Notes under the pieces: model-generated
What the model was told of the DNA's origin: nothing
Databases searched by the model: none
The model's input: the letters and a program-made list of their open reading frames with translations, nothing else
Position numbers and translations under genes: made by a program
Virus record (IMG/VR): IMGVR_UViG_3300020595_000003
Span: 1-41,593 of that record
Length of the DNA: 41,593 nt
DNA from: a virus
Reading direction: 5' to 3' (one strand)
Shown here: piece by piece, positions 1 through 41,593 of the stretch
Position numbering within the stretch: the first letter of the stretch is position 1
Layout: each line of letters begins with the position of its first letter

Positions 1-127
1 AAGGTGTACCTACAGTGTGGTAAGCAGCGTTGGCTTTACCAGTCACTGGGAAGGACGCTGATTTACCTGACGCGATGGTGCGTGAGACGTGCAGGTCCTT
101 CATTACGTTTACTTCGTCAAATGCGGT
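1..127. repeat. Exact 127-bp terminal redundancy of the window (copy 1), identical to 41467-41593
   Basis: Base-by-base comparison shows the first 127 nt equal the last 127 nt. The repeat falls inside the capsid gene and its length equals a common maximal assembler k-mer, so it is read as a circular-contig overlap. Confidence 0.9.
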
Positions 128-10485: not shown

Positions 10486-12117
10486 TTAAAAGTCTTCTGT
10501 GACTTCTCCATTTTCGGTGTCGTCTTCAAAGACCGTCGGGTCTTCAACTTCGACCATCCGTCCAGTTTCTTTGTTGTAATGGACGAAACATCCGACCCCT
10601 GTTTCACCTGTAAATCGGTTCTTCAGGATGCGGATTGTTGAGACGTTTGGGTTGTCGCTTTGTTGGTCGCGCTCAACACCCAGACAGATGTCTGAAAGCT
10701 GTGCGATAGCAGCACTGCCGCGTAGTGAGTTGAGGTTGGTTTCAAGACCGTTCTCCCATCCCTTGTCGCCCGATGGACGCTTCAGGTGAGATACAAGAAT
10801 AAGGCCAATCCCTGTCTCTTCGCACAAGGACCTCAGCTTCGTCATGATGACGTCGATGGCTTTGCGCTCGTCTCCATTATCTACGCCAGAGACGACGATG
10901 CTGAGGTGGTCGAGTATAACCCACCCAACATCACAAGCCTTGGCCAAGTACCGCACACGGTTCAGCAGGTTGTCTGTAGCGAGAGAACCAAAGTGGTCGT
11001 AGAGAAAGACACGACCACTGCCGACGGTATCATCAAAGGCTGAACGCAACGCGCCTTCAGAGATGCCTTCCTTTGACAGATGAAGCGGCTTTTCCAGTGA
11101 TAGACCCATAAGGCCCAAAGCTGTTCGCTTGGTATTCTCTTCCAAAGCAATGTAGCCGATGCTCTCACCACGTTTGAGTAGCTCGAAAGCAATTTCGCGA
11201 CAGACCTGCGACTTACCAACGCCAGAACCAGCTGTGATAGTGACCAGTTCCCCGCGTCGCATACCCAAGGTTTTCTTATTCAAACCCTCAAATGGGTAGT
11301 CGATGCACTCGGTTTCTTCGTCAGTTATAATGGTTTCCCACATGTTCTGACCATCGATGATGCCATCTGGGCGGTAGACCTTTGCGTCCCACATTGCAGA
11401 GATGAGTTCAGCACCTTTACCAGCGACTAGCATTTCGTTGGCATCTTTTAGGGGTAGGGTGGCTATGGCTGCTTTGCCCACCGAGAGCATGGCGGCAACT
11501 TCTTGGCTTGCCATTCGGCCGGCCTCATCGTTGTCAAACATGATGACGACGCGTTCGAAACTCTCAACAAACTCAAGTGAGTTCGACACTGCTTTCTTTG
11601 CACCAGCTGCGCCTGTGCCTACGCTACATACTGGAAAACGGTTTCCTTGGGCTTGTGAAAGACTGAGGCAATCAACCTCGCCCTCCACCAAACATAACAT
11701 TTTGCCACCTTCGTTACGCCAAAGGTGCTGACCATAAAGGCCAGCCTTCTTTGTATCCCCGATGAACTTAAATTGTTTGCCTTTGAACCGCAGTTTTTGA
11801 GCCACTGGGGTGCCAGTGCCATCGCGATAAGTCGCAATCTGTACAGGTTCGCCGTGATATTCACCGAGCGTATAACCAAACTTGCGGCAGGTTTCGTCAG
11901 TGATGCCACGCTTGGGCAACGCTTGGGCTTCCCCAAACGGTATTAAGTCTTGCGGCATTCGAGTTCCACTTCTTGTAGGCTCAGCATCGTCACCGCGAGT
12001 GCGGGCCGTGCATGAGAAACAGTAAGTGTGTCCATCACTATAGATGGCTCTGGCGTCAGAGCTTCCACAGGATGGACACGGTTCTTTGCGGAGGTATTCG
12101 CTTTCGCTATCCAGCAA
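10486..12117 (-). CDS. Primase-helicase (T7 gp4-like)
   Basis: An N-terminal zinc ribbon (CPSCGSSD...CFSC) is followed by a TOPRIM-like EGEVD/FDNDEAG region, Walker A GSGVGKS and a DnaB-type C-terminal domain. Confidence 0.9.
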   Translation of the reverse strand: MLDSESEYLRKEPCPSCGSSDARAIYSDGHTYCFSCTARTRGDDAEPTRSGTRMPQDLIPFGEAQALPKRGITDETCRKFGYTLGEYHGEPVQIATYRDGTGTPVAQKLRFKGKQFKFIGDTKKAGLYGQHLWRNEGGKMLCLVEGEVDCLSLSQAQGNRFPVCSVGTGAAGAKKAVSNSLEFVESFERVVIMFDNDEAGRMASQEVAAMLSVGKAAIATLPLKDANEMLVAGKGAELISAMWDAKVYRPDGIIDGQNMWETIITDEETECIDYPFEGLNKKTLGMRRGELVTITAGSGVGKSQVCREIAFELLKRGESIGYIALEENTKRTALGLMGLSLEKPLHLSKEGISEGALRSAFDDTVGSGRVFLYDHFGSLATDNLLNRVRYLAKACDVGWVILDHLSIVVSGVDNGDERKAIDVIMTKLRSLCEETGIGLILVSHLKRPSGDKGWENGLETNLNSLRGSAAIAQLSDICLGVERDQQSDNPNVSTIRILKNRFTGETGVGCFVHYNKETGRMVEVEDPTVFEDDTENGEVTEDF

Positions 12118-14068: not shown

Positions 14069-16540
14069 TTATGCGAAGAAAAACTCGGACTCACGCACCG
14101 CTGTTAAATCCAATTCTCCTTTCTTTGGCAGGGACGGCAATGCTGTTGTCGTTAACAGTTGAGTTTCATCCCGAAACATCGCCAATGGGTCATTATCTAG
14201 GTACAGCTCGATAAACGCTTCGCGCAGACATGCATTAAGCATTGGGACATCGGCAGCATGTGTACCAAAACTGTCATGTATCATTGCAAAGCTGCCAACA
14301 CCGTTTCCAGCAGCTAAGTTGACGGTCATTCTGAGGTGACAGCCGTCATTGGCATGCACCCAATTCGGGCTAATCGAGTTGGCTTGTTTGCGTTTGTCAA
14401 TTTCCTGCAGTTCTTCCCTCAGGCTGACGTAAATCTGTTTGTCGCCAAATTTTGTCTTGATGCGATGTCTGCTTGTGTTTGGATAATGCTGTAGGACGGG
14501 TAATCCATCTAGGGTGGTCCACATCGTTGGGAGGTTTTCCCCCGCAAGAATGCGAGAACATTTTTGAAGCCAATCCATTCCTTCTTTTGCGGCGATAACA
14601 GTTTCATTGATTGAGGCCCAGATGTGGCCAGACAGATAGAGCGATGCCTCCCATTCCTGACCATGTAGGGTGCTGACATAGGACGGGTTTTCTTGACGGC
14701 GCTGGGCATCTGTATCCTTGATATACTCAGCGACGAACGCCCGTGAAGAGTACAGCGTACTACCGTAAACTCTAGTCATAGTGCATCGTTTTGCAGCTTT
14801 GCGCGATAATCCATAGTCCAAGCAAGCCTTTGCCAACGCGCCTTTAGTGCCCTTTAGGTCTACTTTTATCTTTTCTTGTGCGAGGTCGATGACGCGTTGG
14901 TAGATGTCCTCTGGCTGGCTTGATGGTATTAGATTGGTTGCGGTTGCCCCTACAGGGTCACGCAGTGCAGCTGAGAAATGTTGCAGACCTGAGCAGCTAC
15001 CATCTTTGGCGATAGGGATGTGGCTTATGTGGTCATATCCGTCCCGTTGGAAGCCTGCCCATTCCTTGGCAAAAGCGAAAAAACACCACGGACTGTCCGC
15101 TTCTTTGGCCCACCACAGGTCCGCTAGCGGGTCGTTGGCTATCTGCAAGATACGGTCTGTGTTGTCTTCGACCCAATCAATGCGTTCTTCCATGGATACT
15201 TTGTCATAGCCAAAGCAGTTTGCACCGTGGACAGCCAATTCAAACGCAGCCTCATTAGACCCAAGGGGTTTACCTTGAGAAAATTCGAGCAAGCCTTTTG
15301 CAAGGCTATTGCCCTGTGGATTTAAATACATTGGCGCGGGGTACAGCCTTCCTCGAAAATCCATCGTGTGGGGAAAGTAGATTGCATCGAAATCTGCAAA
15401 TTGATTGGCAATGGAAGCAATCTTTGCCGTCATCAGTCGCTTAGATTTAAGGATGATGTTTGCCTCGTGACGCTCTACCTCTTTTCGCTTCCAATCCTTG
15501 AACTTCAGTTTGTCTGCCTCACTCAGTTCTTTGGTTTTTGCGCTGGTCGCTAACGGCGAGGGGATAGGTGGAACCTCTTCATGAGATGGCAATCCAGCAA
15601 CGAGCAATCCAGCACCATTTATGGTCTCAAATATTTCTAATACGGATTTATTTATACGCCACGCAGTTCGTTGGACTGTATTCACCGCGTCATAAACAGG
15701 CTTCATTTGTTCTATGACGCTGCTCAAGTCGCTGAAATAGTTTTTACCCTGCTCATTTCGCTTTATTTTGATAAAGGGCAATCGAGGGGTGTGATAGGTC
15801 ATGTAGCCGCCACCAAATGGGCCTGACCAATCCAGCGGTCGTACGACCATTGGCAAATGTATCGGATTTAAAAGGCTGGCAGCACCTTTGTTTTGTTCAA
15901 TGAAGGCACAGATACTTTCGGTCGGCTTAATGAAAATGTCGGTCTTGTTCTTTTCCCGTTTCACTCGGTGTTCAAATACGAAGCCAGTCGCGTCAATAAA
16001 GAGACTAATCAGAGCCATGCCGACATGTACTTTGTCTGTCTTGGACCATCCCGACCATTTTTCACAGTAGCGGTTGTACGCTGCAACGAGTGTTTGGCGT
16101 TTACGCTTATCTGTGGTGGTGGTTTCACTCTGTATTTTCTTAAACAGATGTGGGTGCTGGTTATCGAAGGAAATATAGCGCAATTCATCTTCGCAAGCTG
16201 TAGCGATGCGGATGGCGGAATCCTGTATTCGTGTTGTGAACATGATTCTATCGATGATTATACGCGCTGTATGGTAGGCGACGACCTCGGGTTTCATTTT
16301 CGAGATATGTTTAAACGCGATGTTTGCGTTTCCAGCCTTTCCTTTCTGCACTTCATTTTGTTTTTGGATGATGAGTTCGGCCATCGGTTCGATAGCGCGT
16401 TTCATGAGGGGTGACCCGAAGTAGGTTGAGGATTGCTCACCTTTCTGTATCTTAGCTGATAGTTCGTTTTCAAACTTCAGCACTGTTTCCACTCGGCACT
16501 GTTTTTCGAGGTTTTCTTGTACTTGGTATAAATCTGTCAT
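14069..16540 (-). CDS. Single-subunit DNA-dependent RNA polymerase (T7 gp1-like)
   Basis: The 823-aa ORF carries DFRGRLYP, DGSCSGLQHFSA, MIHDSFGTH and a C-terminal ESEFFFA (T7: DGSCSGIQHFSA, IHDSFGT, SDFAFA). Confidence 0.95.
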   Translation of the reverse strand: MTDLYQVQENLEKQCRVETVLKFENELSAKIQKGEQSSTYFGSPLMKRAIEPMAELIIQKQNEVQKGKAGNANIAFKHISKMKPEVVAYHTARIIIDRIMFTTRIQDSAIRIATACEDELRYISFDNQHPHLFKKIQSETTTTDKRKRQTLVAAYNRYCEKWSGWSKTDKVHVGMALISLFIDATGFVFEHRVKREKNKTDIFIKPTESICAFIEQNKGAASLLNPIHLPMVVRPLDWSGPFGGGYMTYHTPRLPFIKIKRNEQGKNYFSDLSSVIEQMKPVYDAVNTVQRTAWRINKSVLEIFETINGAGLLVAGLPSHEEVPPIPSPLATSAKTKELSEADKLKFKDWKRKEVERHEANIILKSKRLMTAKIASIANQFADFDAIYFPHTMDFRGRLYPAPMYLNPQGNSLAKGLLEFSQGKPLGSNEAAFELAVHGANCFGYDKVSMEERIDWVEDNTDRILQIANDPLADLWWAKEADSPWCFFAFAKEWAGFQRDGYDHISHIPIAKDGSCSGLQHFSAALRDPVGATATNLIPSSQPEDIYQRVIDLAQEKIKVDLKGTKGALAKACLDYGLSRKAAKRCTMTRVYGSTLYSSRAFVAEYIKDTDAQRRQENPSYVSTLHGQEWEASLYLSGHIWASINETVIAAKEGMDWLQKCSRILAGENLPTMWTTLDGLPVLQHYPNTSRHRIKTKFGDKQIYVSLREELQEIDKRKQANSISPNWVHANDGCHLRMTVNLAAGNGVGSFAMIHDSFGTHAADVPMLNACLREAFIELYLDNDPLAMFRDETQLLTTTALPSLPKKGELDLTAVRESEFFFA

Positions 16541-16763
16541 GCATGTCCTTTAGGTTGTGGATGCGTTGATTAGGTGAGGGGTCATGAACGTCCCCTTTGG
16601 TGAGTAGATGATATGATATATAGACTTACTTTTGATTTTTAATAGATGAGTTAGGTGCGGCAATGCGCCCCGCAACTGTTACCGAAAATGAAATCAATCA
16701 ACTGAATACGGGTTTTCTCTTATGAAATCGGTCAACGGACGGTAATCGGATTCCTATATACCT

Positions 16764-16792
16764 TTGACAAAGTATCCTCATGGACTCAGAAT
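16764..16792 (+). promoter_or_regulatory. Sigma70-like promoter for the plus-strand integrase (TTGACA-N17-CAGAAT)
   Basis: A perfect -35 hexamer, a 17-nt spacer and a 4/6 -10 hexamer lie about 25 nt upstream of the GAGGA SD and the ATG. Confidence 0.4.
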
Positions 16793-16812
16793 CGAGGTCT
16801 TAACTAGAGGAG

Positions 16813-17778
16813 ATGACTATGAAGTTAGTCTTATTTTGGAGGGGTGAATCGGCTTATGTCCGTGGAACGACCCCCGACGGTAAGCGAATAAGGGAACCTT
16901 TGAAGACGAAGGACAAAAAGCGAGCCGAAGAGTTACGAGCGGCAATGGAAGCCCGAATTTGGAAGGAACACCTGTACGGTCCAGAAGCGGTTATGACCTT
17001 TAAGGAAGCTGCAGAGCATTACATTGCAGACGGTGGTGACTCACGCTTTTTAAATAAGGTCCCAGATGGTTTTTCACAGACCACTCTGGGTAAAATTGTA
17101 CCAATGGCTGTAAGGAAAGCTGCCAAAGAGGCTTATCCAAACCACGCTGCAGCAACCTTGAACCGTCAAGCAATTACACCCATCAGAGCAGTCATTAACT
17201 ATGCGCATCAGCAAGGTTGGTGTGCGCCTATCAAGGTAAAGGCTTTTCCTACCGTGAAGCCTAAACGTAAGGCTGTGGATGTAGACTACCTTATCGCTCT
17301 GAAGCCAGAGTTACCGTCCAACCTGTTTGCGATGCTGCTCTTTTTGCACACGACGGGGCGGCGTATCGGTGAAGCTATTTCGTTAACGCCTGATGATGTG
17401 CGAGAGGGGGTCGCGCATATACAAAAGACAAAGAATGGGGAGCCAGCAAAAGCTACGTTAGTCCCCGTACTGGTTAAGATGCTGGAGGGGCTACCTGCCA
17501 AGCATGGTCGCGTGTTCGGTTACACAGACCGACACAACATCTACAGCACTCTTAAAAGAGCCTGTGTTCGGGCTGGAGTCGAATACCTCGGGACGCATCA
17601 AGTTGGACGTCATTCTTTTGCAACTGCATTGGAGAGAGAAGGGTGGTCTAGCAAAGCGATTGCGGATGCTGGCGGCTGGAAATCAGTACGCTTAGTAGAC
17701 GAAACCTATATCCACACAGACAATGCTGCGGGCCGTGCATCAGACATGATTGGCACAAAATTAGCGCATGCATTTTAA
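16813..17778 (+). CDS. int: Tyrosine integrase 1 (opposite strand to the phage core genes; start may be the ATG at 16819)
   Basis: The catalytic pattern is Arg in TTGRRIGEA, HxxR-type GRHSFATAL, and GGWKS...ETYIHT (Tyr). An N-terminal SAM-like region is present. Confidence 0.85.
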   Translation: MTMKLVLFWRGESAYVRGTTPDGKRIREPLKTKDKKRAEELRAAMEARIWKEHLYGPEAVMTFKEAAEHYIADGGDSRFLNKVPDGFSQTTLGKIVPMAVRKAAKEAYPNHAAATLNRQAITPIRAVINYAHQQGWCAPIKVKAFPTVKPKRKAVDVDYLIALKPELPSNLFAMLLFLHTTGRRIGEAISLTPDDVREGVAHIQKTKNGEPAKATLVPVLVKMLEGLPAKHGRVFGYTDRHNIYSTLKRACVRAGVEYLGTHQVGRHSFATALEREGWSSKAIADAGGWKSVRLVDETYIHTDNAAGRASDMIGTKLAHAF

Positions 17779-17818
17779 TAACTAATTGAAACTAATGCAT
17801 AAAATAACCATCTGGTTA

Positions 17819-17878
17819 CCCTGCTAAGGGAGTAGGCCCGTGAGGGTCTCGAGGGTTCGAATCCCTTCGTCTCTGCCA
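17819..17878 (+). other. tRNA-Ser(GCU)-like 3' fragment (anticodon loop to CCA); candidate attP core
   Basis: The sequence is CC-CTGCTAA-GGGAG, then a variable arm AGGCCC-GTGA-GGGTCT, a T arm GAGGG-TTCGAAT-CCCTT, an acceptor 3' strand CGTCTCT and G-CCA. No complementary 5' acceptor strand or D arm lies upstream. The CCTGCTAAGGGAGT segment matches the E. coli tRNA-Ser(GCU) anticodon arm as I recall it. Confidence 0.7.
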
Positions 17879-17905
17879 GATTTCGCTGTATTTACAGTAA
17901 CTTAA

Positions 17906-17936
17906 GGCTCCTCTTCGTGAGGGGCCTTTTGCTTTT
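17906..17936 (+). terminator. Intrinsic terminator downstream of the tRNA fragment and integrase 1
   Basis: GGCTCCTC-TTCGT-GAGGGGCC forms an 8-bp stem with one G-U pair, followed by TTTTGCTTTT. Confidence 0.65.
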
Positions 17937-17970
17937 CTAGGGGATGCTACGTGAAAAATAGTAGGCTCAT

Positions 17971-18024
17971 TTGGCACACTTCTGACACAGTTTGGCACAC
18001 TTCTGGCACACTTTTGGCACAGAT
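17971..18024. repeat. Five tandem, helically phased 10-11-bp repeats (YTGRCACA core)
   Basis: The units are TTGGCACACTT / CTGACACAGT / TTGGCACACTT / CTGGCACACTT / TTGGCACAGAT, starting at 17971, 17982, 17992, 18003 and 18014. A further TTGGCACA lies at 17750-17757 on the other side of the tRNA fragment. Confidence 0.85.
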
Positions 18025-18032
18025 TTTTAGGT

Positions 18033-19076
18033 TTACGGCTGGTTCACACGTAGGGAAACTAGACGTTCTGCTGCGTCATCCATGCGCTCTGGTATGAAGT
18101 GAGAATATCTTTGGGTTATCTCTAGCGTGGAATGACCCATCCATTCCATGACTGTCCTTAAGTCAGTGCCTGCAGAAATCAAACGTGTGCAGCAGGTGTG
18201 ACGTAGAGCATGAACTACAAACTGGTTGTCATCCTTTAGTCCTATCGCGGTTCTCATGGTTACCCAAGTTCGACCAAAGTGGCGTTCTGCGATGTGACCA
18301 AATACTTTCTGGTCGTGGCGTGGGATATTGTGCTGGCGGAGTTTGAGACGGCTTAAAATCTCAAGAACCATCGGTGTAGCATTAATTGTTCTGGGCGAGT
18401 TTGACTTGGTCTCCCATAGCGTGATGCGTTTTCTGCCGAGGTCTATGTCTGACCATTTCAGTTCAAGCGCCTCAGTCTTACGAAAGCCCGTTTCGATATA
18501 GAACAGCATTAAGTCCCTATAGTCGTCGTGGTTGTTCTTTTCGAACCAATCAACAGCCTGATGTTCTTCTTGTTCAGTGAGGAACCTTATCCGTCCGTTT
18601 GTCGCAGTCAGGCTTTTCATGCGGGTTGGTTCATTAACCATCTGACCGCGTTCAAAGGCGTCTGTCATTGCACCGTAAAGTATCGACCCAACATAATTGA
18701 TGGTGGTGTTGGCCCACTGACTGTCTGTCATAGAATCTTGAAACAGATGAACCCGCGCCGAGGTGATACCGTCCAGCTTTGTGGTCGGACCAAAGAAGTC
18801 GATGATGGTCTGCTTGTACCAATCGAATGTCTTCGTGGATGTCTTCTTTGAGGTGCTGGTGGATACTCTGCGCTGGATGTAAGCGGTGAGGGCGTCTGTG
18901 ATTGAAATACTGTTCTGGGGCGAAGCCGATTTGTACTGACCAGCCTTCATCAGCTTTTTGAGGGCAATCGCGTCCTCTAAACTATCAGTCGTCCCATTGA
19001 GGCGTTTACCTGCCAACATGGTTTGCACGGCAAACTTACCGTTAGACTTCTCTATGATGCCCTTGGGTATCTTCAC
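18033..19076 (-). CDS. int: Tyrosine integrase 2 (same strand as the phage core genes)
   Basis: The catalytic pattern is Arg in ETGFRKTEAL, VHALRHTCCT (HxLRH) and GHSTLEITQRYSH (His, Tyr). The GTG start overlaps the TGA of the upstream gene (GTGA). Confidence 0.85.
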   Translation of the reverse strand: MKIPKGIIEKSNGKFAVQTMLAGKRLNGTTDSLEDAIALKKLMKAGQYKSASPQNSISITDALTAYIQRRVSTSTSKKTSTKTFDWYKQTIIDFFGPTTKLDGITSARVHLFQDSMTDSQWANTTINYVGSILYGAMTDAFERGQMVNEPTRMKSLTATNGRIRFLTEQEEHQAVDWFEKNNHDDYRDLMLFYIETGFRKTEALELKWSDIDLGRKRITLWETKSNSPRTINATPMVLEILSRLKLRQHNIPRHDQKVFGHIAERHFGRTWVTMRTAIGLKDDNQFVVHALRHTCCTRLISAGTDLRTVMEWMGHSTLEITQRYSHFIPERMDDAAERLVSLRVNQP

Positions 19077-20254
19077 TCTAAGTCATCCTGAAGCATATCT
19101 CGGATTTCCTGCTGTTCAAGCAAAGCCTCTGTTCTTGCTTTTTGTTCGGGTGTCTTCGACGCGTCTCGCAGTTCTGCTTTGAGCGATTCAACTTCATCAA
19201 GTAGCGTTAACTCGGCTGCGGTCAGGCTTTGTATATGTTTAGCGTTCCGAAGTTGTTCCTGCATCATAACCCACTGCGCATTCAAATGTGGCGTTTCAAA
19301 TATGTGTTCTGAGTCGAATTGTTTTTGAAATTTTCGAAGCTGGTCTTCAGCTTCTGCTATTTCCTCATTCGCGTGAGCTATCTCAGCTTCCAGCTTACCC
19401 CGTCTCGTTTTGGGGGTGGGGGTGAGCATGCTTTCGTATTCTGCATCACTTGCAGATTTGAGATATTCCACCACATCGGCCATGCTCTGCTGCTGCCAGT
19501 CATCGGCCATTTGGTCTAACTCGTCTTTCGGCGTACGTTCACGAAGACGCTTCAAAAGTACCTTATAGGTTACAATACCTCTGTCAGTCCTAACGTAACC
19601 TGCGCCTACTTCAATTTTCCCTGCGTCTGGTTGTCCAGCTGCCAAGACTGCGCGGAGGTCTGTTTTGAGGTAAAACGCTTGCCGTTTCTGCTCTGCTTTT
19701 TGGACTTTCCCAGCTAAACCTTCGGCTTCAACGCCTACCGCTTCTACATTCACATTCATTGATGCTTTTGCGACAATGGGTGCGCCAGCAAGAAGACTCT
19801 CTGCACCCATCAGAACTTCACGTTCTTTTGCCTTCTCATCAATGTTAGCTTTCATAGCTTTGCTTGCAGCTTGATAGGCGAAGTCGTTTTTCTCTTCTGA
19901 AAAGCAGGGTGATAGTTTGTCAAAAAGCGCAAGACCTTTTTCGGTAAGGTGAACTATTCTTTGACGTCTATCTTGCAGGTCTTGCTTGAGTGTAATCCAG
20001 CCTACGTTTTGCAGCGCAACAGCTATACGCTGCATCTTCGCTTGCTTGTGACCCAGAGCCTCTTGCAAGTTCAGTAATGGAATCCCGTCTTGGTCGCGAT
20101 GTGCCATAAGAAATAAGAAAGCCTCCATGTGCAAAATGGAGACCTTCTCTTTGCTTAAACCGCCGCTACTGTTGTACGCGGTCGCAAAAGCCTTAACAAA
20201 GTTTAACCCGTTTAAGGCGTTATTCTGTTCGTCGCTCACGTCGATACCTAACAT
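19073..20254 (-). CDS. MarR-type winged-helix domain fused to a long coiled-coil region; candidate lysogeny or recombination-directionality regulator
   Basis: Over roughly the first 115 aa, LHMEAFLFLMAH....LLNLQEALGHKQAKMQRIAVALQNVGWITLKQDLQDRRQRIVHLTEKG fits the MarR wHTH pattern. The C-terminal 150 aa is heptad-like and E/K/Q-rich. The gene is translationally coupled to integrase 2. Confidence 0.55.
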   Translation of the reverse strand: MLGIDVSDEQNNALNGLNFVKAFATAYNSSGGLSKEKVSILHMEAFLFLMAHRDQDGIPLLNLQEALGHKQAKMQRIAVALQNVGWITLKQDLQDRRQRIVHLTEKGLALFDKLSPCFSEEKNDFAYQAASKAMKANIDEKAKEREVLMGAESLLAGAPIVAKASMNVNVEAVGVEAEGLAGKVQKAEQKRQAFYLKTDLRAVLAAGQPDAGKIEVGAGYVRTDRGIVTYKVLLKRLRERTPKDELDQMADDWQQQSMADVVEYLKSASDAEYESMLTPTPKTRRGKLEAEIAHANEEIAEAEDQLRKFQKQFDSEHIFETPHLNAQWVMMQEQLRNAKHIQSLTAAELTLLDEVESLKAELRDASKTPEQKARTEALLEQQEIRDMLQDDLE

Positions 20255-21953: not shown

Positions 21954-22281
21954 TTACGTGCAGATTTGTTGCAAGTCGTATTATTTATCGTTCATTTACA
22001 GCACGTTACACAGCTCATTTATTTAAAATTACCGATGATTTTATGTACCGTCTGCTCAATTTGCAAAACGATAGAGTAAAGAAAGAGAGCCAAAACAAGC
22101 CGACGAAACGTAGAGATTCTGCACTGATTTGGCTGGTAACAGTTGTTTTAACTGTCACAAATGACCCCGCCACCCCTTGTTTGTATGGATATAGAGAGGG
22201 GTGACGGTAAAATTGGCGGTAAAACAGTGGTTTCTGTGTCGCTTTGAGCCAAAGGCGGAGGGGGGACGTTTCGCTTGAGGT

Positions 22282-22763: not shown

Positions 22764-24485
22764 CTACCACCTAAGACTGTTGGTCTTCTGCCCTTGGTGA
22801 CCCGTAAGTACCGCTAGTCCCATTGATGCAGCAGCTTTCAGTCTGTCCAATTCAGCGACCATCAGTTCCTCTTTACGCGCACCCATACGCACCTCTGCAT
22901 CCTGAGCCATCGCATCCACCCAATACTGACAAGCCATAGCTAGAGCATCCAGCCTATCATCATTGGTCAGAGCGCCACGGTCAGCCGTAAGTCGCGTCAG
23001 CTGATACATCAGTTGGTAACGTAGTGCTTGCTCAGGGGGCAGGTGCTGACAGCTATCAAAGTCCTTCTGGATGACCTTCTTGTCCATCACCAGTCTGTGC
23101 TGGTTCATCACAGGTTCGAGGACATCGATAATACGACGTTCCTTCTGTGTGTTATGACGGACTTCACTCATGGTTACCGAATGAACTTTCGACAGAACGG
23201 GCAGGAACAATTGGTTAAACATCCCATCACCGAAGTTGCTCTCGACGATAATTTCGTTGACCTGTTCTTCCTTAGCGATGACCGCGAGTTTCTGCAGTGC
23301 TTCCTCAGAATAACCACCAGCGATACCACCGCATCTGCGGACGTACAGGTAGCCGTTGAGCATTTTGACGACTGCATACCCAGTCTCATCCTTACCGCGT
23401 CCTGAGGGGTCGATAGACATCACTGAGCCGCTATATTCGACGAACTGTTCGGACATAAACATGGGTCGATGGAGATGGTCACCGTTGAATGCCACGTTGG
23501 GTAGTTCTTCGATGATATACTGGTTGTCAGATGACCATACGACCTTCTCAGGGGCCTCTAGGATAGGCACATCCATGATTACTAGGTCGGACACCTTGAG
23601 AGGGTATCTCTCGGCATCAGAGAGCCTCGTATCGAGCATAAACTGTAGCGCAAAACCAGAGCGTCCATAGGATGCTTCGCGTTCCAATAAGTCAAAGTCT
23701 GAGAAGCGATTAGGGTCTGTAGGTTGACTTACAATAGAAGCGTCTGCCTGTAGTTTTCTATCAATAAGGAGGGCGAGTTTATTGCCATATCCTATTGCTT
23801 GGTCTTCGCTTGGATACCTAGCGGGCCAGATGCTCACTTTGTATCCACGGTCGGGTAATTTGTTGTAGAGGCTCTCTTGGTTTTGAGGTGTGCCTAGGTA
23901 GATGATGCGCCCATCTGGTTTGAGGATAGCATCAAATTCCTTCACAGCCTCTGACAGCTTATCGCGCATCCCTTGGGTCATAGAGTTGTTCGGCACTTCG
24001 ATGTCATCTGCAACGATTACATCGGCTCGAGAGCCAGCCAGCTGACCTGAGATACCTACAGACTTAACTGAAGGTGCATGGGACGCGGCAGCGGGTGCTA
24101 CATCAAAGCTAATCTTGGACTGTCTTTGGTCAGTCTTTGGCTGCAGGTGGGCCAAGATGTCCATTTCGTTGATGAGCCTTAGGGTAAACGTAGTGAAGTC
24201 ATCAGAGCGAGACTTCGACGCGGATACGACCAAGATGTTTAACTGCGGGTTCATGTAGAGCAGCCAGACAACGTAGGCTGAGGTAATCCAAGATTTACCC
24301 ACCCCTCTGAATGCTTGGATAATCATTCGCTTATCGCCGTGCTGTAGGTTGTAGGCGATGTCGTATTGAACAGGGGTAGGGTCGGGGAGGTTAAGGTGCT
24401 TCCAGATAACGAAAAGGAACTTTCGAAAATCTGAAAGCGGGTCTTTCGCTATGGGGATACCAAGCGAGGTGTTTGCTTTGAACAT
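22764..24485 (-). CDS. Terminase large subunit (T7 gp19-like)
   Basis: FLFVIWKHLNLPDPTPVQ, IIQAFRGVGKSWITSAYVVW, SVKSVGISGQLAGSRADVIVADDIE, IDPSGRGKDETGYAV and ESNFGDGMF align by eye with T7 gp19. The ATG at 24485 is preferred over the TTG at 24509. Confidence 0.9.
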   Translation of the reverse strand: MFKANTSLGIPIAKDPLSDFRKFLFVIWKHLNLPDPTPVQYDIAYNLQHGDKRMIIQAFRGVGKSWITSAYVVWLLYMNPQLNILVVSASKSRSDDFTTFTLRLINEMDILAHLQPKTDQRQSKISFDVAPAAASHAPSVKSVGISGQLAGSRADVIVADDIEVPNNSMTQGMRDKLSEAVKEFDAILKPDGRIIYLGTPQNQESLYNKLPDRGYKVSIWPARYPSEDQAIGYGNKLALLIDRKLQADASIVSQPTDPNRFSDFDLLEREASYGRSGFALQFMLDTRLSDAERYPLKVSDLVIMDVPILEAPEKVVWSSDNQYIIEELPNVAFNGDHLHRPMFMSEQFVEYSGSVMSIDPSGRGKDETGYAVVKMLNGYLYVRRCGGIAGGYSEEALQKLAVIAKEEQVNEIIVESNFGDGMFNQLFLPVLSKVHSVTMSEVRHNTQKERRIIDVLEPVMNQHRLVMDKKVIQKDFDSCQHLPPEQALRYQLMYQLTRLTADRGALTNDDRLDALAMACQYWVDAMAQDAEVRMGARKEELMVAELDRLKAAASMGLAVLTGHQGQKTNSLRW

Positions 24486-24535
24486 ATTTATCCGTATTAT
24501 TGGTCTCAAATTAAGATTAATTGAGGAATGGAACT

Positions 24536-26976: not shown

Positions 26977-27828
26977 TTATTTTTTATTCCAATAGAATTG
27001 TTTGTATCTATTGAAAAATTTAGTTGTCAGGCGCGTGTTAACTTCCGCCACCTTATCTTTATCGACAACACCTAACTCCATATCCATCCGCTCTCTCTTA
27101 AAGGGTATGATTTGAGCAATAGGTGTCCCACAGGGGATAAGGAAAGTTCCAACCTCAGACCCTGTCCATACGAATGGAAGGTTTACGTTGGCGTAATATC
27201 TATCTGTATCCACGACACCTTCTATTAGTTGTATGTCGTAGTCCCAGTTGTTCGCGGGGTTTTGGAATTTTATTGAGTAGCCTTCAGAGGTTTCAATAAC
27301 CCAAGGATTGATAAGTTTAAGCAGGACTTTACCCAACTTAAACTTTTTCAACATACAGGCTTGCCCCACTTGGTCCCAGCTATGAGCACCAATCGTCTCT
27401 TCGTTATCGTTATCATTAGAAAAACGCATCTGAATTGCAAGATTGTCGTCTGCTTTATAGCTGGAAATAACCTCATGGGTTTCTTTATCTACTGTTCCAA
27501 TAAGCGTTTCTGGATTGGGAACTACATCAGATAATACCAGCTTGTCTTGGCTGTTATAGAAGTTATGGGAAACTGCCACCTCAACATGTAAGTCTGCCCA
27601 TAATGGTATGATATAACCCTGAGAAACTGCATCTAACACGGGCATACAACGCTTAACTGTGCCAGCTTCCCATTCTTCATGTCCATCAGGTTTAGGTTTT
27701 AAATTCTTAAACCATAAGGGCATTGCCCTTGATGCAGGTACTGGGTGAGGGATTGAGTTAAGTTTCTCAGCGGTCGTATGAAAACTTATTATAGGCTTCC
27801 TATTAAAGAGAAGCATTAAGCGTTCCAC
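26977..27828 (-). CDS. Conserved hypothetical protein (283 aa) following the fibre genes
   Basis: It overlaps fibre gene 2 by 13 nt. The [21 protein letters not shown] and [12 protein letters not shown] motifs recall a beta-rich/cupin-like family of unknown function, though I am not certain of this. Confidence 0.45.
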
Positions 27829-29498
27829 CAGACTGTTGTGGAACCTGCTGAACCACTAATACTTACGTTCCCACCATTCGCAACGTATCCCTGAAACACT
27901 TTGACGTTCTGCCCGTAATATGCACTGTTGCTTCTTACTCCTGAAACGCCTTGGAAACGTCCGTGGACGTGCGTGTTAGCGGAGAACATCCAAGAGCTAT
28001 TACCATTTACCGTTATGTTGGCATTATTAACACTATTGTTGTAGGTTGGACCAGTTACAGTGGTACGAAAGTACCTACCGTTTGAGCCGCCAAGAACCGT
28101 GCCGTTATTACTGTTTACGGTTGATGCGCCTGAATTTGAGAACCACTTTGCTGATGGACCTGCTGGACCTGTAGCACCTGTAGAACCTGTAGCACCAGTA
28201 TTGCCTCGAGGACCTGTTGCACCATTGGAGCCAGCATTTCCTTGCGGTCCTTGATTACCAGTAGCCCCTGCTGAACCTGTAGCACCTGTAGCACCTTGAG
28301 GACCTGTCGGACCTGCCGGACCAACCGCACCTGTACCGCCAGTGGCACCTGTATTACCGGTGTTACCTTTATCGCCTTTAGGGCCTGTAGAACCTTGTGG
28401 ACCCGTACCGCCTTGTGGACCTGTAGAACCTTGAGGGCCTGTCTGACCTTGGATACCTTGACCACCTGTAGCACCTGCAGCACCGGTATTACCTTTTGGG
28501 CCTTGTGAGCCTGTAGGACCTTGTGGTCCAGTGGCACCTGTAGAACCGCGAAGGTTTGTGTAGGAGCCTTGAGTTCCATTAGGGTTTTCAAACCGCAGAC
28601 TGTAGCCTGACCAGTTGTGGTCTGGGGCAGGGCCTGTTGAGCCGGTAGCACCTGTAGAGCCTGTACCACCTTGAGGGCCTTGAGGCCCGATTGCTCCGGT
28701 CGCACCTGTTCCACCTGTAGAACCTTGAGGACCCGTCGCACCTGTAGCACCTTGAGGACCTGTTCCGCCTGTGTTGCCAGTAGGTCCTTGAATACCCTGC
28801 GGGCCAGTGTCGCCATCATCGCCCTGTGGTCCTTGAGGGCCAACTGCGCCTGTATTTCCGATAGGACCTTGTGGGCCTGTAGAACCAGTTGAGCCTGTAA
28901 GACCAATAGGTCCTTGAGAGCCTGTAGAACCTGTAGGGCCTGTATTTCCGATAGGACCTTGTGAGCCTGTGGCACCTGTAGCACCATCATCACCTGCAGG
29001 GCCTGTCGCTCCGATACCGCCTGTCGCGCCAGTATTGCCGATAGGTCCTTGGATACCTTGAGCGCCAGTGTCTCCGTCATCACCTTGTGGGCCTTGTGGG
29101 CCTGTGGCACCGGTATTCCCGATGGGTCCTTGAGGACCTGTAGCACCTGTAGCACCATCATCACCTGCAGGGCCTGTAGCACCTATAGCACCTGTCGGAC
29201 CTGTTGCGCCTGTAGCACCTTGGATACCCTGTGGGCCTTGGTCACCTTCGATGCCTTGGTCACCTTGAGGGCCTTGTGGGCCTGTAGCACCATCAGAGCC
29301 GTCAGAACCGTTTGTACCTTTCTGAGCAACTTGTTGCCAGTAGGTTGTGTTAGTTGTCGCTGTACCAACAGGAACGTCAATACGAGCAACAAATGTTTCG
29401 CCGTAATAGTACACAGCATCTTGTGCAACGTAAGTTGTAGAGGAAACCCAAGTTCCCTTCCAACCCATGCGCACACGACCGATATTTATCTGAGACAT
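27816..29498 (-). CDS. Collagen-like fibre protein 2 (two GXY tracts interrupted by about 30 aa)
   Basis: The 560-aa protein has an N-terminal W/Y-rich domain ([25 protein letters not shown]...YWQQV) and long uninterrupted G-X-Y tracts. Its C-terminal region is non-collagenous and Asn/Ser/Gly-rich. Confidence 0.7.
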
Positions 29499-29503
29499 AT
29501 GTT

Positions 29504-31174
29504 TTACACCGTTGTTACATAGAGGAAGCCATCGGCATCGATTGAGAAATCGTTGTCGTTAGCATCGCCGTAATATTCTATTTGAAGCTCACCATCTGAA
29601 TTGATGGAGAACGTACCGAAAGCTAGGCCGAGTGGGGTTGCACCCATCGCGCCTGTAGGTCCTGCAGAACCGAGTGGTCCTGTATCGCCTTGGTCGCCTT
29701 TAATACCTTGTGGGCCAATCGGTCCTGCTACGCCTTGAGGGCCTAGTGGGCCTGTAGCACCAGTAATACCTTGGGCACCCGTAGGACCTTGTAGGCCGGT
29801 AGCACCCGTAGCACCGATAGGGCCTTGGTCACCTGTAGCCCCCTTAGCACCAGTAGAACCTGTAGCACCGACAGGCCCTTGAGTTCCTTGGTCACCCGCG
29901 ATGCCTTGGTCCCCTTGCAAGCCTTGAGGGCCTTGACTGCCAGTAGCACCTGTAGGGCCTTGTAAGCCAGTAGCACCGTCAGCACCGATAGGGCCTTGGT
30001 CACCTGTCGCGCCTTTAGCACCAGTAGAACCTGTAGGTCCTTGAGGACCCTCATCGCCTGTAGCACCTGTGGCACCGATAGGGCCTTGGTCACCTTGAGG
30101 GCCTTGAGAACCTGTGGCCCCTGTAGGACCTTCAGGGCCTTGGAGGCCAGTATTACCTTCATCGCCTTGAGGGCCTTGAATACCTTGAGGACCTTGAGAG
30201 CCTGTGGCACCAGTTGGGCCTTGGTCACCTTGAGGGCCGACAGGGCCTGTGGCACCAGCGTCTCCGGTAATACCTTGGTCACCAGTGTCACCAGTAATAC
30301 CTTGAGAACCTGTAGGTCCTTCAGGGCCTTGTGGGCCTGTTAAACCTGTGACGCCTTGTGGGCCTGTAGCACCTGTAGCACCTACGTTACCTTGCGTACC
30401 TTCAGGGCCTACTGGTCCTTGGTCACCAGTAACACCTTGGATACCTGTAGGGCCTTGCAGACCTGCAGGACCCTCTGGACCTGTAGCACCTGTTTGTCCT
30501 GTAGGGCCTTGAGGGCCTTGGACGCCTTGGATACCGACTGGGCCTTCTGGTCCTGTAGGTCCGCTGTTACCAACGACACCCTGAACACCTTGAGGGCCTT
30601 CAGATAGGTAGAGAGTGTAGTCACCTGTCGCAGCATCGTAGGTTGCATAACCATCTGTGCCGTAGGGCAGGCGCTCTACGACTGGGTTTAAGTTGTAAAG
30701 TTGATTACGGATTACTGTAGCATCCGCGAGGATTGATAGACCTGTAGTGTTCACAAAGCCGCGTGTAGCCACCTCGTCGTCACCTGTAGGTGTACCAATG
30801 TTCTTGATTGAGTAACCTTTAGCATCCCAGACACCATCTACGTCATCTAACGCGATAGCTTCATCAGCTCTGTCTCTAGCCTCTTCAGCTAAGTATCGGG
30901 ATTGTTTGTTTGCTAAATCAAGGTCAGCTTCGAATAGGGTCGAGCCGTCTGTGAAATCGACCAGCGGCACCTTCGAAGTTTGCCGCTTAATTGTAACTAA
31001 CTGTTGGTCATTAGGGGTGGTTGTAAGTGTGATACTTGTATCGTTGATATAGGTATGTGCAGCCGCAGTTCCGCTCACGAGAACCGTTACATCTGTCCTA
31101 CTGATATAGGGGAATGTAATTGCAAATTCTGAGGTGGTTCCATCGGCGACATACTTGACGATTGAGTCCGTCAT
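29504..31174 (-). CDS. Tail fibre with a T7 gp17 N-terminal adaptor domain and a collagen-like shaft of about 105 triplets
   Basis: [31 protein letters not shown] compares with T7 gp17 [34 protein letters not shown] repeats then run from about residue 193 to about residue 505. Confidence 0.85.
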
Positions 31175-40738: not shown

Positions 40739-41593
40739 TTAAGCAGTTTTGATTTCGACTGCGCACTCAGGACGTAGAACGCCGTGGCCCATCGCGTATT
40801 TTGCGGCCATTAGCGTACCTTGGTACATGACTTCAAAGTCGCCAGATGTGCGTTCAACAGCAAGGTCCATCAACTTAACTGTACCGATTGCAGACTTCTG
40901 CATGACCAGTGCGGCAGTAGTTGAGAAGTTACCGGAGTAGGTATTATTCTCGCCAGATACGGCTGCTACGTTGCTTGTCGGTAGGTTGTTAGTCTTAACA
41001 ATCTGGATACCAGCAACTTTCAGAACTGTGCCTTCAGCGTATACACCGGCTCCGCCCCAGTCACGATTGATGACTGATGTCTCTTGAACCAAGTTGTAAT
41101 ACTGAGCAGGGGCCACGAGTGCCACGCGTTCGTTCTCAGGAACATCTTTCTCGTCCATAGCTTTCGCTGCGTCGAAGATAGCTGCGGCCAAAGCTGAGCC
41201 AGATGTTTTAGCTGTAGCAGACACAAGGGCTGTACCGCCGTTGCCGCCAGAGACAGTCGCTGCTGAACGTGCGCCCAATAGACCTACGCGCATTGTGCGT
41301 GTGTCGAATTCTTTAGCCAAGGCCATACCCAACAGACGTGAATATTCTGCACGTACGTCATAGTGGTTCTTAGCTTCATCGATGTTTGCAATGAAAGTGT
41401 CAGCAATTAGAACGTCATCGATGTTGATAACGATTTCGTTGTGAGCAATTTTCTGTGTACCCAACAAAGGTGTACCTACAGTGTGGTAAGCAGCGTTGGC
41501 TTTACCAGTCACTGGGAAGGACGCTGATTTACCTGACGCGATGGTGCGTGAGACGTGCAGGTCCTTCATTACGTTTACTTCGTCAAATGCGGT
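40739..41593 (-). CDS. Major capsid protein, main body (T7 gp10-like); the 5' end continues at 235-128 after wrapping
   Basis: SGKSASFPV.GK, DEAKNHYDVRAEYSRLLG and AKYAMGHGVLRPE match the T7 gp10 segments SGKSAQFPVLGR, EDAMNHYDVRSEYTSQLG and AKYAMGHGGLRPE. Confidence 0.9.
   Translation of the reverse strand, partial: TAFDEVNVMKDLHVSRTIASGKSASFPVTGKANAAYHTVGTPLLGTQKIAHNEIVINIDDVLIADTFIANIDEAKNHYDVRAEYSRLLGMALAKEFDTRTMRVGLLGARSAATVSGGNGGTALVSATAKTSGSALAAAIFDAAKAMDEKDVPENERVALVAPAQYYNLVQETSVINRDWGGAGVYAEGTVLKVAGIQIVKTNNLPTSNVAAVSGENNTYSGNFSTTAALVMQKSAIGTVKLMDLAVERTSGDFEVMYQGTLMAAKYAMGHGVLRPECAVEIKTA
41467..41593. repeat. Exact 127-bp terminal redundancy (copy 2), identical to 1-127
   Basis: See feature 1-127. 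Confidence 0.9.

What the first reader, a model, noticed from the sequence alone, without database searches (positions are those of the whole stretch)
16764..19076. Two intact, convergent tyrosine integrases bracket a tRNA-Ser(GCU)-derived attP in a T7-like genome
Int1 (16813-17778, plus strand) has its own TTGACA-N17-CAGAAT promoter. Int2 (18033-19076) lies on the minus strand with the phage core genes. Both keep the R...HxxR...Y catalytic signature. They converge on a 254-bp spacer with three elements. (i) A 60-nt segment folds as the anticodon loop CT-GCT-AA, long variable arm, T arm, acceptor 3' strand and CCA of a type II tRNA, but it lacks the 5' acceptor strand and D arm. (ii) An intrinsic terminator follows it. 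(iii) Phased repeats follow the terminator. T7-like marine phages with one integrase beside a tRNA-matching site are known (P-SSP7, HTVC019P-type pelagiphages). I do not recognise a precedent for two different integrases facing one core. They could act as a heteromeric XerC/D-like pair, serve alternative hosts or sites, or one could be a recent capture.
Basis: partly seen in the sequence, partly recalled or inferred. Interest (0 to 1): 0.75.

Follow-up and report, generated by a model that had tools for sequence, protein, structure and literature searches.

The report
Two-integrase temperate T7-like roseophage
A complete T7-like marine phage genome carries two intact integrases around a copy of the 3' two-thirds of its host's tRNA-Ser gene; natural lysogens show that it inserts there, and a whole clade of related phages also carries two integrases.

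Summary
Int1 (16813/16819-17778, +) and Int2 (18033-19076, -) are intact tyrosine recombinases that converge on a 254-bp spacer.

Window 17819-17878 is 60/60 identical to positions 31-90 of the tRNA-Ser(GCU) gene of Ascidiaceihabitans-like Rhodobacteraceae. An intrinsic terminator and 11-nt-phased TTGGCACA repeats follow it. Metagenome contigs hold both prophage junctions, attR and attL, with 100%-identical integrases. The site is therefore a working attP, and the arrangement is not a chimera: it recurs in five other assemblies.

The two integrases do not look like equal partners. Int2 is the lineage's own integrase (MarR-like gene, int, RNA polymerase order, as in CRP roseophages and HTVC019P-type pelagiphages). 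Int1, the tRNA-Ser core and the TTGGCA repeats form a portable module, which also occurs in unrelated phages and prophages that lack Int2. The repeats change with the type of second integrase, not with Int2. So Int1 most likely performs the tRNA-Ser integration.

Int2's own site was not found. All 13 distinct loci of the Int2 clade whose downstream sequence could be read carry a second integrase, of three types, each beside a different tRNA fragment. I found no report of this in T7-like phages.

The parts
16764..16792 (+). sigma-70-like promoter TTGACA-N17-CAGAAT upstream of Int1
   Evidence: 10/12 consensus match. Both hexamers and the 17-nt spacing are kept in L032 with a different spacer sequence. 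Activity not tested.
16813..17778 (+). Int1, an accessory tyrosine integrase. Probable true start is ATG 16819 (319 aa). R184, K207, H262/Q263, R266, W289, Y299.
   Evidence: PF00589 E 1e-16; phrog_1 E 2e-33. The listed residues are at least 95% conserved in 121 homologs. A 100%-identical protein occurs on 19 contigs. Homologs are tied to the tRNA-Ser(GCU) 31-90 fragment.
17750..17757 (+). P-arm TTGGCACA site inside the 3' end of Int1, 69 nt before the core
   Evidence: TTGGCA sites lie at about -64 to -80 from the core in L032, L021, L017 and L016 as well. In L021 the motif sits in a different codon register, so it is a DNA-level element.
17819..17878 (+). attP core: 60 nt identical to positions 31-90 of host tRNA-Ser(GCU). 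It comprises the last 2 nt of the 5' anticodon-stem strand, the anticodon loop 17821-17827 (GCT = 17823-17825), the variable arm, the T arm, the 3' acceptor strand, the discriminator and CCA.
   Evidence: Exact matches in L001-L005. attR hybrid in L041. attL with the full 90-nt tRNA in L054. Same left boundary in L016, L017, L032 and L049.
17904..17938 (+). Intrinsic terminator (stem 17904-17928 plus T-tract), + strand only. In the lysogen it ends the rebuilt tRNA-Ser gene; in the phage it ends Int1.
   Evidence: Compensatory changes in L021 and L032. It lies directly after the full tRNA in attL.
17970..18022 (+). P'-arm: four TGGCACA sites (17972, 17993, 18004, 18015) plus a degenerate one at 17983, with 10-11-nt phasing
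   Evidence: TRF period 11, 4.6 copies. The same layout at +91 to +136 from the core occurs in L021, L032 and the Int2-less L017. It is absent from IntX-type loci whose Int2 N-terminus is conserved.
18033..19076 (-). Int2, the lineage-native tyrosine integrase. R199, K224, H289, R292, H315, Y324.
   Evidence: PF00589 E 2e-25. Aligned to HP1 integrase 1aih. 36-44% identical to the integrases of CRP roseophages in the same MarR-int-RNAP position. dN/dS 0.12 against L021.
19073..20254 (-). 393-aa winged-helix (MarR-like) protein. Its stop overlaps the Int2 start by 4 nt.
   Evidence: Weak, sub-threshold matches to HTH_34 and SarA/Rot. Positional equivalent of the MarR genes annotated upstream of int in CRP phages. 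Homologs lie upstream of Int2 in L009, L010 and L015.
16674..16745 (-). Conserved elements upstream of RNAP: TTACCGTC (16738-16745) and the block GGTAACAGTTG (16674-16684). They could be an operator/promoter or the remains of Int2's own attP. Function open.
   Evidence: TTACCGTC occurs 4 times in the window against 0.8 expected. A copy (exact in the window, L032, L010 and L015; one mismatch in L031 and L034) lies 139-220 nt upstream of RNAP in every two-integrase locus checked. The block is conserved in alignment A2.
14069..16540 (-). T7-type single-subunit RNA polymerase. Integration at attP separates it from the early promoters.
   Evidence: PF00940 and PF14700. 57-58% identical to CRP-125, CRP-171 and CRP-113.

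Best explanation
This is the complete genome of a temperate T7-like (Autographiviridae) roseophage. It lysogenises an Ascidiaceihabitans-like Rhodobacteraceae host by site-specific recombination into the single tRNA-Ser(GCU) gene found in each host locus examined.

The attP spans about 17750-18022:
- one P-arm TTGGCACA site inside the end of Int1;
- a 60-nt core identical to tRNA positions 31-90;
- a terminator;
- four to five phased TTGGCACA P'-arm sites.

Strand exchange is inferred to occur in the anticodon-loop region. The lysogen keeps an unchanged tRNA-Ser, built from the host 5' part and the phage 3' part and ended by the phage terminator.

This attP belongs to Int1. Int1 is an acquired, self-promoted int-attP cassette of a family that targets the anticodon-loop region of tRNA genes in alphaproteobacteria. 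Int2 is the lineage's vertically inherited integrase (MarR-like gene, int, RNAP). It is kept under purifying selection and most likely serves a second attachment site that is not a tRNA 3' fragment and has not been identified.

Shown: the core identity, attL and attR, reproducibility across assemblies, and module co-occurrence. Inferred: which integrase cuts, the crossover position, arm binding, and Int2's role.
For: Integration is real.
- attR: L041 is a 444.5-kb contig that reads Int1 (100%), then the core, then host GT8/icd/ilvD flank. This is the same flank as downstream of tRNA-Ser in L003.
- attL: L054 reads Int2 (100%), then the TGTGCCA repeats, the terminator, the full 90-nt tRNA-Ser and the host upstream flank of L003.
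- The other end of the 444.5-kb contig stops inside the tRNA, 162 nt past Int2.
- Decayed attL-side remnants lie beside icd in host contigs L023 and L026.

Int1 owns the site.
- Homologs at 62-79% identity in L016, L017 (a high-GC contig with contractile-tail-type genes and no Int2), L032 and L049 (Pacificoceanicola chromosome) are all followed by a tRNA-Ser fragment that starts at the same base. L016 shows compensatory changes in the variable arm.
- A 55% homolog in Sulfitobacter faviae sits next to tRNA-Thr(GGU)-like 3' fragments; this identification is read by eye.
- TTGGCA sites hold fixed offsets on both sides of the core in the window, L032, L021 and the Int2-less L017. L017 has a 17-nt exact repeat.

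Int2 is native.
- It shares its position with CRP phages and with the pelagiphage layout in which attP lies between int and RNAP.
- Its divergence tracks RNAP (57% against 58% to L032), whereas Int1 is 78% identical.
- Int2-type integrases act alone elsewhere: prophage L020 compared with phage L008 gives a crossover about 170 bp past the int stop, with GTAGTAA arms on both sides.
Against: - No experiment assigns the reaction to Int1.
- Int2's stop codon lies 10 bp from the P' arm, and the core sits 155-214 bp from the Int2 stop. Sole Int2-type integrases (L008) have their crossover at about that distance.
- No attP for Int2 was found. No junction that would indicate a second integration site was seen among about 30 contigs of this phage.
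- Every Int2-clade locus with readable context has a second integrase (13 of 13). This could mean dependence rather than independence.
- The Int1 module here lacks the small HTH (Xis-like) gene that precedes the Int1 homolog in L017, so control of directionality is unexplained.
Confidence: 0.68

Rival explanations
1. Int2-clade integrases have lost a working attP of their own. They act together with the second integrase on the tRNA-derived site, for example one for integration and one for excision or directionality, or each exchanging one strand pair as XerC/D do.
For: All 13 Int2-clade loci with readable context carry a second integrase. These are of three unrelated types, and none was found alone. 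Both genes are under purifying selection. IntX-type partners are short (253-282 aa), and their PHROG match starts later in the profile, so they may lack an arm-binding domain. No Xis-like gene was seen near either integrase in the window. No separate Int2 attP was found.
Against: Int1-type integrases keep the same core and arm layout without any Int2. Int2's closest outgroup integrases work alone. The arm repeats differ completely between Int1-type and IntX-type loci, although the Int2 N-terminus is conserved. A clade founded by one ancestor with two integrases would give the same co-occurrence without any dependence.
Confidence: 0.13
2. Int2 alone is the tRNA-Ser integrase. Its attP sits in the position usual for this phage group (directly downstream of int, before RNAP), and Int1 is a passenger or a redundant gene.
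For: In HTVC019P-type pelagiphages all attP sites lie between int and RNAP. The core lies 155-214 bp from the Int2 stop, similar to the crossover distance in L008/L020. The host prophage remnants keep the Int2 side.
Against: The tRNA fragment's identity and orientation follow the accessory integrase, not Int2. Loci with Int2 homologs of 57-73% identity and IntX or a third integrase type carry other tRNA fragments, in the opposite orientation. The TTGGCA arms recur with Int1 homologs that have no Int2. The attL-side remnants are uninformative, because they would arise whichever enzyme acted.
Confidence: 0.08
3. Int2 no longer integrates anything. It is retained for another job, such as resolving multimers or regulation, or it is a relic on its way to loss.
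For: No attP was identified for it. Arm repeats next to int, as seen beside sole Int2-type integrases (L008, CRP-114), are missing downstream of Int2-clade genes.
Against: All catalytic residues are intact. dN/dS is 0.12. The gene is intact in all 13 loci across a depth of about 57% identity, which argues against a relic. TTACCGTC elements conserved upstream of RNAP could be part of its site.
Confidence: 0.1
4. The Int1 segment is an assembly chimera.
For: None found.
Against: The identical Int1/Int2 arrangement occurs in five other assemblies, from five samples, besides the window (L040, L042, L043, L044, L045). It also appears in the prophage (L041/L053) and in the diverged relative L032.
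Confidence: 0.01

Closest known systems
HTVC019P-type pelagiphages and P-SSP7-type cyanopodoviruses (temperate marine T7-like phages)
   Same: A MarR-like gene, a tyrosine integrase, attP and then RNAP at the early/middle boundary. attB lies in a tRNA gene, the phage copy rebuilds the tRNA, and integration has been shown by hybrid junctions. Int2 is about 30% identical to pelagiphage integrases.
   Different: Those phages are described with one integrase. Here there are two, and the tRNA-derived attP belongs to the extra one. The host is a roseobacter and the target is tRNA-Ser(GCU).
Autographiviridae roseophages CRP-125/171/113 and CRP-114/227/361 (PMC11092137)
   Same: These are the closest cultured relatives: RNAP 51-58% and Int2 36-44% identical, with the same MarR-int-RNAP order.
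   Different: Each has a single integrase. The paper infers lysogenic potential only and names no att sites. CRP-114 has its own arm-like repeats (GGTGCA/TGCACC) around an unknown core.
Integrases that target the anticodon-loop sublocation of tRNA genes (Williams 2002 classification, recalled from memory); Rhizobium phage phiU, Bradyrhizobium ppBeUSDA76-2 and Caulobacter Cr30 integrases
   Same: Int1 is 36-45% identical to these alphaproteobacterial phage integrases. The identity block runs from the anticodon stem to the 3' end of the tRNA gene, with int beside attP and lambda-style arm repeats on both sides.
   Different: The module sits inside a T7-like genome, next to a second, unrelated integrase, and lacks the Xis-like gene seen upstream of the homolog in L017.
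XerC/XerD heteromeric recombinase pairs
   Same: Two different tyrosine recombinases are encoded by one replicon and always co-occur within a clade.
   Different: Int1 and Int2 are only 24% identical and have different domain lengths. Each family is found working without the other. The core's half-sites are the near-symmetric anticodon stem, so there is no evidence for two distinct half-sites.

Membership tests
Tyrosine recombinase / phage integrase (PF00589) | Catalytic domain match above Pfam's gathering score | tested here: met
   Int1 61.5 bits and Int2 89.9 bits against a cut-off of 27.1. Both match phrog_1.
Tyrosine recombinase / phage integrase (PF00589) | Catalytic R-K-H-R-H/W-Y residues in alignment | tested here: met
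   Int2: R199, K224, H289, R292, H315 and Y324, aligned to HP1 Int 1aih. Int1: R184, K207, R266, W289 and Y299 are at least 95% conserved in 121 homologs. The first His is displaced by one position (THQxGRH: H262, Q263).
tRNA-gene attP with phage-borne 3' tRNA fragment (anticodon-loop sublocation) | Block of identity to a host tRNA gene running from the anticodon stem/loop to the 3' end | tested here: met
   60/60 identity to positions 31-90 of tRNA-Ser(GCU) in five genomes.
tRNA-gene attP with phage-borne 3' tRNA fragment (anticodon-loop sublocation) | Hybrid attL and attR junctions in host DNA | tested here: met
   attR in L041. attL in L054 with the full tRNA rebuilt.
tRNA-gene attP with phage-borne 3' tRNA fragment (anticodon-loop sublocation) | Strand exchange within the 7-nt anticodon loop | not testable with these tools
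   Only inferred, because the core is identical in phage and host. Two deletion variants have their left breakpoint in the loop, which is suggestive only.
Lambda-type complex attP (arm-type sites flanking the core) | Repeated motif on both sides of the core, conserved in position among relatives | tested here: met
   TTGGCA sites at -64 to -80 and at +91 to +136 in the window, L032, L021 and L017.
Lambda-type complex attP (arm-type sites flanking the core) | Binding of the integrase N-terminal domain to the arm sites | not testable with these tools
   Needs footprinting or EMSA.
Temperate marine T7-like phage integration module (HTVC019P / ARP type) | MarR-like gene, integrase, attP, then RNAP, in a genome with T7-type RNAP | tested here: met
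Temperate marine T7-like phage integration module (HTVC019P / ARP type) | A single integrase that uses the attP directly downstream of it | tested here: not met
   There are two integrases. The attP between them co-varies with the accessory one.
XerC/XerD-like heteromeric pair | Neither partner works or occurs without the other | tested here: not met
   Int1-type occurs alone in L016, L017 and L049. Int2-type occurs alone in L020/L008 and the CRP phages. Within the narrower Int2 clade, 13 of 13 loci have a partner, so for that clade alone the test is inconclusive.
tRNA gene | Complete cloverleaf detectable by a tRNA finder | tested here: not met
   ARAGORN reports 0 genes in the window. Rfam gives no tRNA hit. 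The 5' acceptor strand, the D arm and most of the 5' strand of the anticodon stem are absent.
Intrinsic (rho-independent) terminator | GC-rich hairpin followed by a T-tract, kept by compensatory change | tested here: met

The most novel reading that the evidence does not exclude
Int2-clade integrases of these roseophages have no attachment site of their own. They are obligate partners of an interchangeable, tRNA-targeting second integrase. This would be a two-recombinase integration/excision system with a division of labour, for example Int2 as the directionality or architectural factor or as the excisive recombinase. It would explain why the clade is never found with one integrase and why no Xis-like gene is seen.
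Probability: 0.13. Interest if true: 0.8.

Novelty: new variant of a known kind. Interest (0 to 1): 0.55.

Why it matters
Temperate T7-like phages are among the most abundant marine viruses, yet their lysogeny is documented for only a few hosts. This finding adds four things.

1. Sequence-level proof (attP, attB, attL and attR) that an uncultured roseophage lysogenises an Ascidiaceihabitans-like roseobacter at tRNA-Ser(GCU). That also gives a host assignment.
2. A clade in which two integrases are the rule. The second one is swapped between at least three types, each bringing a different tRNA-derived site. The int-RNAP junction is therefore a cassette-exchange hot spot that retargets integration.
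3. A clean natural test case for what a second integrase does: dual-site lysogeny, host-range bet-hedging or cooperation. All sequences needed for attP x attB assays are in hand.
4. A compact, self-promoted Int1-attP cassette with a defined 60-nt core and arm layout, which may be useful as an integration tool for roseobacters.

Tried and rejected
- Rfam and ARAGORN on the spacer found no tRNA call. Identity was settled by exact match to host genomes instead.
- blastn of the region against GenBank phages found nothing.
- The exact core and a spacer 19-mer had no match in IMG/VR. In the metagenome scan with the 19-mer, six of the eight hits were chance matches.
- I first read the TGGCACA repeats as Int2 arm sites, by analogy with the repeats just downstream of the sole integrases in L008 and CRP-114. 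I rejected this after finding the same motif and offsets with the Int2-less Int1 homolog in L017, and different repeats in IntX-type loci.
- I looked for Int2's own attP. The block GGTAACAGTTG and the 8-mer TTACCGTC upstream of RNAP are conserved. A fourth TTACCGTC copy at 22203, in the non-coding stretch upstream of the early genes, makes an operator reading equally likely, so this stays unresolved.
- Phmmer of Int1 against the PDB gave no hit. Its catalytic residues were placed through the pairwise alignment with Int2 and family conservation.
- Rfam could not name the tRNA-like fragment of IntX-type loci; only the T-arm hairpin scored. 'tRNA-Tyr(GTA)-like' is therefore my reading of the anticodon-loop sequence only.
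- The look-up of Int2 with its V start failed; it worked with an M start.
Full report
**What is in the window**

The window is a circular assembly; its first and last 127 nt are identical, so the true length is 41,466 bp. It is a T7-like podovirus genome with nearly all genes on the minus strand. These include a single-subunit RNA polymerase (14069-16540; PF00940, E 9e-104) and a large terminase; the identical phage in other assemblies shows the rest of the T7-like gene set (SSB, primase-helicase, DNA polymerase, ThyX, exonuclease).

The closest cultured relatives are the RCA-roseobacter phages. CRP-125, CRP-171 and CRP-113 have RNAP 57-58% identical, and CRP-114, CRP-227 and CRP-361 have 51%.

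**Checking the observation**

Int1 (16813-17778, +) and Int2 (18033-19076, -) are both full-length tyrosine recombinases. They are only 24% identical to each other.

Int2 carries the canonical R199/K224/H289xxR292/H315/Y324 set, aligned to HP1 integrase. Int1 carries R184/K207/R266/W289/Y299, with the first His displaced by one residue (THQVGRH). This pattern is at least 95% conserved in 121 homologs. GAGGAG at 16807-16812, and the gene calls in other assemblies, favour ATG 16819 as the Int1 start.

- **tRNA fragment.** No tRNA gene is called. But 17819-17878 is 60/60 identical to positions 31-90 of the 90-nt tRNA-Ser(GCU) gene of five Ascidiaceihabitans/Rhodobacteraceae genomes. This is the last two bases of the 5' anticodon-stem strand through to CCA.
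- **Terminator.** A 10-bp-stem terminator follows at 17904-17928 with a T-tract. It is kept through compensatory changes in relatives.
- **Repeats.** 4.6 copies of an 11-nt unit carrying TGGCACA lie at 17970-18022.
- **Promoter.** The TTGACA-N17-CAGAAT promoter match upstream of Int1 keeps both hexamers and its spacing in a relative whose spacer sequence differs.

**The site works in nature**

The exact Int1 protein is on 19 contigs and the exact Int2 protein on 13.
- Five other assemblies, including phage-sized contigs of 41.2-42.7 kb from different samples, reproduce the convergent pair. This rules out a chimera.
- A 444.5-kb contig (L041) reads RNAP, then Int1, then the 60-nt core, then host DNA (GT8-like gene, icd, ilvD). 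That is the flank found downstream of tRNA-Ser in genome L003, so this is attR.
- The other end of the same contig stops inside the tRNA, 162 nt past Int2.
- A 5.2-kb contig (L054) reads Int2, then the repeats, the terminator, the complete 90-nt tRNA-Ser and the host upstream flank of L003. This is attL.

The lysogen therefore keeps an unchanged tRNA-Ser that uses the phage's 3' part and the phage's terminator. Two host contigs (L023, L026) carry decayed attL-side remnants next to icd: a truncated Int2, the repeats and the terminator. A further island with a third integrase is inserted in the T-loop/3' end.

**Which integrase owns the site**

Four lines point to Int1.

1. Int1 homologs (62-79% identical) are each followed by a tRNA-Ser(GCU) fragment that begins at exactly the same base. 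This holds in contexts that have no Int2-type gene: L017 (a high-GC contig with contractile-tail-type genes), L016, and a Pacificoceanicola chromosome (L049). L016 shows compensatory changes in the variable arm. A 55% homolog in Sulfitobacter faviae sits next to what reads as a tRNA-Thr(GGU) 3' fragment (identified by eye).
2. TTGGCA sites hold fixed offsets around the core in the window, L032, L021 and the Int2-less L017. They lie at -64 to -80, inside the 3' end of the int gene, and at +91 to +136. L017 has a 17-nt exact repeat on both sides. In L021 the upstream site falls in a different codon register, so it is conserved as DNA rather than as protein sequence.
3. Loci have an equally conserved Int2 N-terminal domain but a different second integrase. 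Those loci carry different repeats (CGAGGGACTAAAT) and a different tRNA-like fragment in the other orientation.
4. Between the window and L032, Int1 is 78% identical, while RNAP (58%) and Int2 (57%) have diverged together. This marks Int1 as a younger, horizontally moving cassette and Int2 as vertically inherited.

Int2 occupies the position of the single integrase of CRP roseophages (36-44% identity). The same position holds the integrase of HTVC019P-type pelagiphages, whose attP lies between int and RNAP.

**Int2-type integrases can work alone**

A 432-kb bacterial contig (L020) holds a prophage that is 87-93% identical in nucleotide sequence to the window over the terminase and early genes. 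It has a different Int2-type integrase (55% identical) as its only integrase, at the junction with host chrB-like genes.

Comparison with the free-phage contig L008 places the crossover about 170 bp past the int stop. It lies between four GTAGTAA repeats and two inverted copies. No tRNA gene is called in the 21 kb of this contig that I fetched. Closely related phages thus differ by whole integration modules.

**A clade with two integrases**

In a neighbour-joining tree, the Int2 homologs that are 57-91% identical to Int2 form one clade, apart from the sole integrases. All 13 distinct loci of that clade whose downstream sequence could be read carry a second integrase between Int2 and RNAP:
- **Int1-type, convergent:** the window, L032 and L021 (in L021 only the last codons are visible).
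- **IntX, co-directional, 253-282 aa:** L009, L010, L015, L031, L034, L036, L059, L061 and L063.
- **A third type:** L062.

The IntX loci share a tRNA-3'-half-like fragment. It is 100% identical over 58-59 nt in L010, L059, L061 and L063, although the integrases around it have diverged. L062 carries what reads as the 5' two-thirds of a tRNA-Ser(CGA) (identified by eye).

Both Int1 and Int2 are under purifying selection. Int2 against L021 gives dN/dS 0.12; the more distant pairs are saturated at synonymous sites, with pN of 0.15-0.29.

**What remains open**

No attP could be assigned to Int2. Nothing downstream of Int2 is shared between Int1-type and IntX-type loci.

The only elements common to all lie upstream of RNAP: a TTACCGTC site 139-220 nt before the start codon and a GGTAACAGTTG block. 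TTACCGTC is over-represented in the window, with 4 copies against 0.8 expected. One copy sits in the non-coding stretch upstream of the early genes at 22203, so these may be operator or promoter elements rather than an att site.

The best-supported model is therefore two independent integration systems, with the site of one still unidentified. A cooperative two-recombinase system is not excluded; I rate it at about 0.13.

**Comparison and novelty**

The parts are all of known kinds: a tyrosine integrase, a tRNA-derived attP with arm sites, and a temperate marine T7-like phage. I found no report of two integrases in Autographiviridae in the paper library. The roseophage paper describes single integrases and names no att sites.

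The clade-wide two-integrase layout with interchangeable tRNA-targeting cassettes is a new variant of a known kind. It is of moderate interest, and all the sequences needed for a decisive recombination assay are available.

Noticed in passing
window 1-127 and 41467-41593: The two ends are identical over exactly 127 nt. This is the signature of a circular k-mer assembly, so the true genome length is 41,466 bp. The virion ends probably lie between the terminase gene (22764-24509) and the early genes.
   Followed up: partly
L040 (about 10990-11010) and L042, against window 17823-17884: Two phage-sized contigs from the same study as the lysogen lack the tRNA core. Their deletions are precise: 56 nt (17823-17878) and 62 nt (17823-17884). 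Both left breakpoints fall in the anticodon loop after CCCT. These may be real integration-defective variants, aberrant Int products or assembly artefacts.
   Followed up: partly
L023:4280-5810 and L026:1800-2206: Host contigs near icd carry a decayed attL side of this phage, with Int2 truncated. Only the last 18-23 nt of tRNA-Ser follow, then GTAGGTGGTAA x2 repeats and a third integrase of 421-429 aa. The tRNA-Ser locus is therefore a hot spot for tandem integration with a T-loop/3'-end crossover.
   Followed up: partly
L055:2300-2814: This contig has an Int2 100% identical to the window's, the same repeats, an L021-like terminator flank, and then only 26 nt of the tRNA 3' end before unrelated sequence. 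It is another junction type at the same tRNA.
   Followed up: no
L020 (ERZ10646654 contig_9091) against the window: A prophage 87-93% identical in nucleotide sequence to the window over the terminase and early genes carries a different, sole Int2-type integrase (55%). It sits next to chrB/chromate-transporter genes. No tRNA gene is called in the fetched 21 kb. This is whole-module swapping between near-identical phages.
   Followed up: partly
window 16738-16745, 16876-16883, 17311-17318, 22203-22210: TTACCGTC occurs 4 times against 0.8 expected. A copy (exact in the window, L032, L010 and L015; one mismatch in L031 and L034) lies 139-220 nt upstream of RNAP in all six two-integrase loci checked. 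It could be an operator for the MarR-like protein or a remnant of Int2's arm sites.
   Followed up: partly
window 27816-31174: Long runs of 9-nt (Gly-X-Y, collagen-like) repeats run through two tail-fibre-like ORFs. The matching gene in L020 has Phage_T7_tail and Collagen Pfam hits.
   Followed up: no
L002:318-1516: In the Ascidiaceihabitans single-cell genome AH-135-O06, a different integrase (336 aa, about 24% identical to Int1) ends 98 nt upstream of a complete tRNA-Ser(GCU) gene.
   Followed up: no
L062:4600-4690: The third accessory-integrase type is preceded by what reads as the 5' two-thirds of a tRNA-Ser(CGA): acceptor, D arm, anticodon arm, variable arm and the start of the T arm. That phage would then supply the 5' part of the tRNA, not the 3' part.
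   Followed up: no
L049:3981-6315: In Pacificoceanicola onchidii a HEPN/GmrSD defence-like gene pair lies between the Int1 homolog and its tRNA-Ser 31-90 fragment. Cargo has been inserted inside the int-attP module.
   Followed up: no
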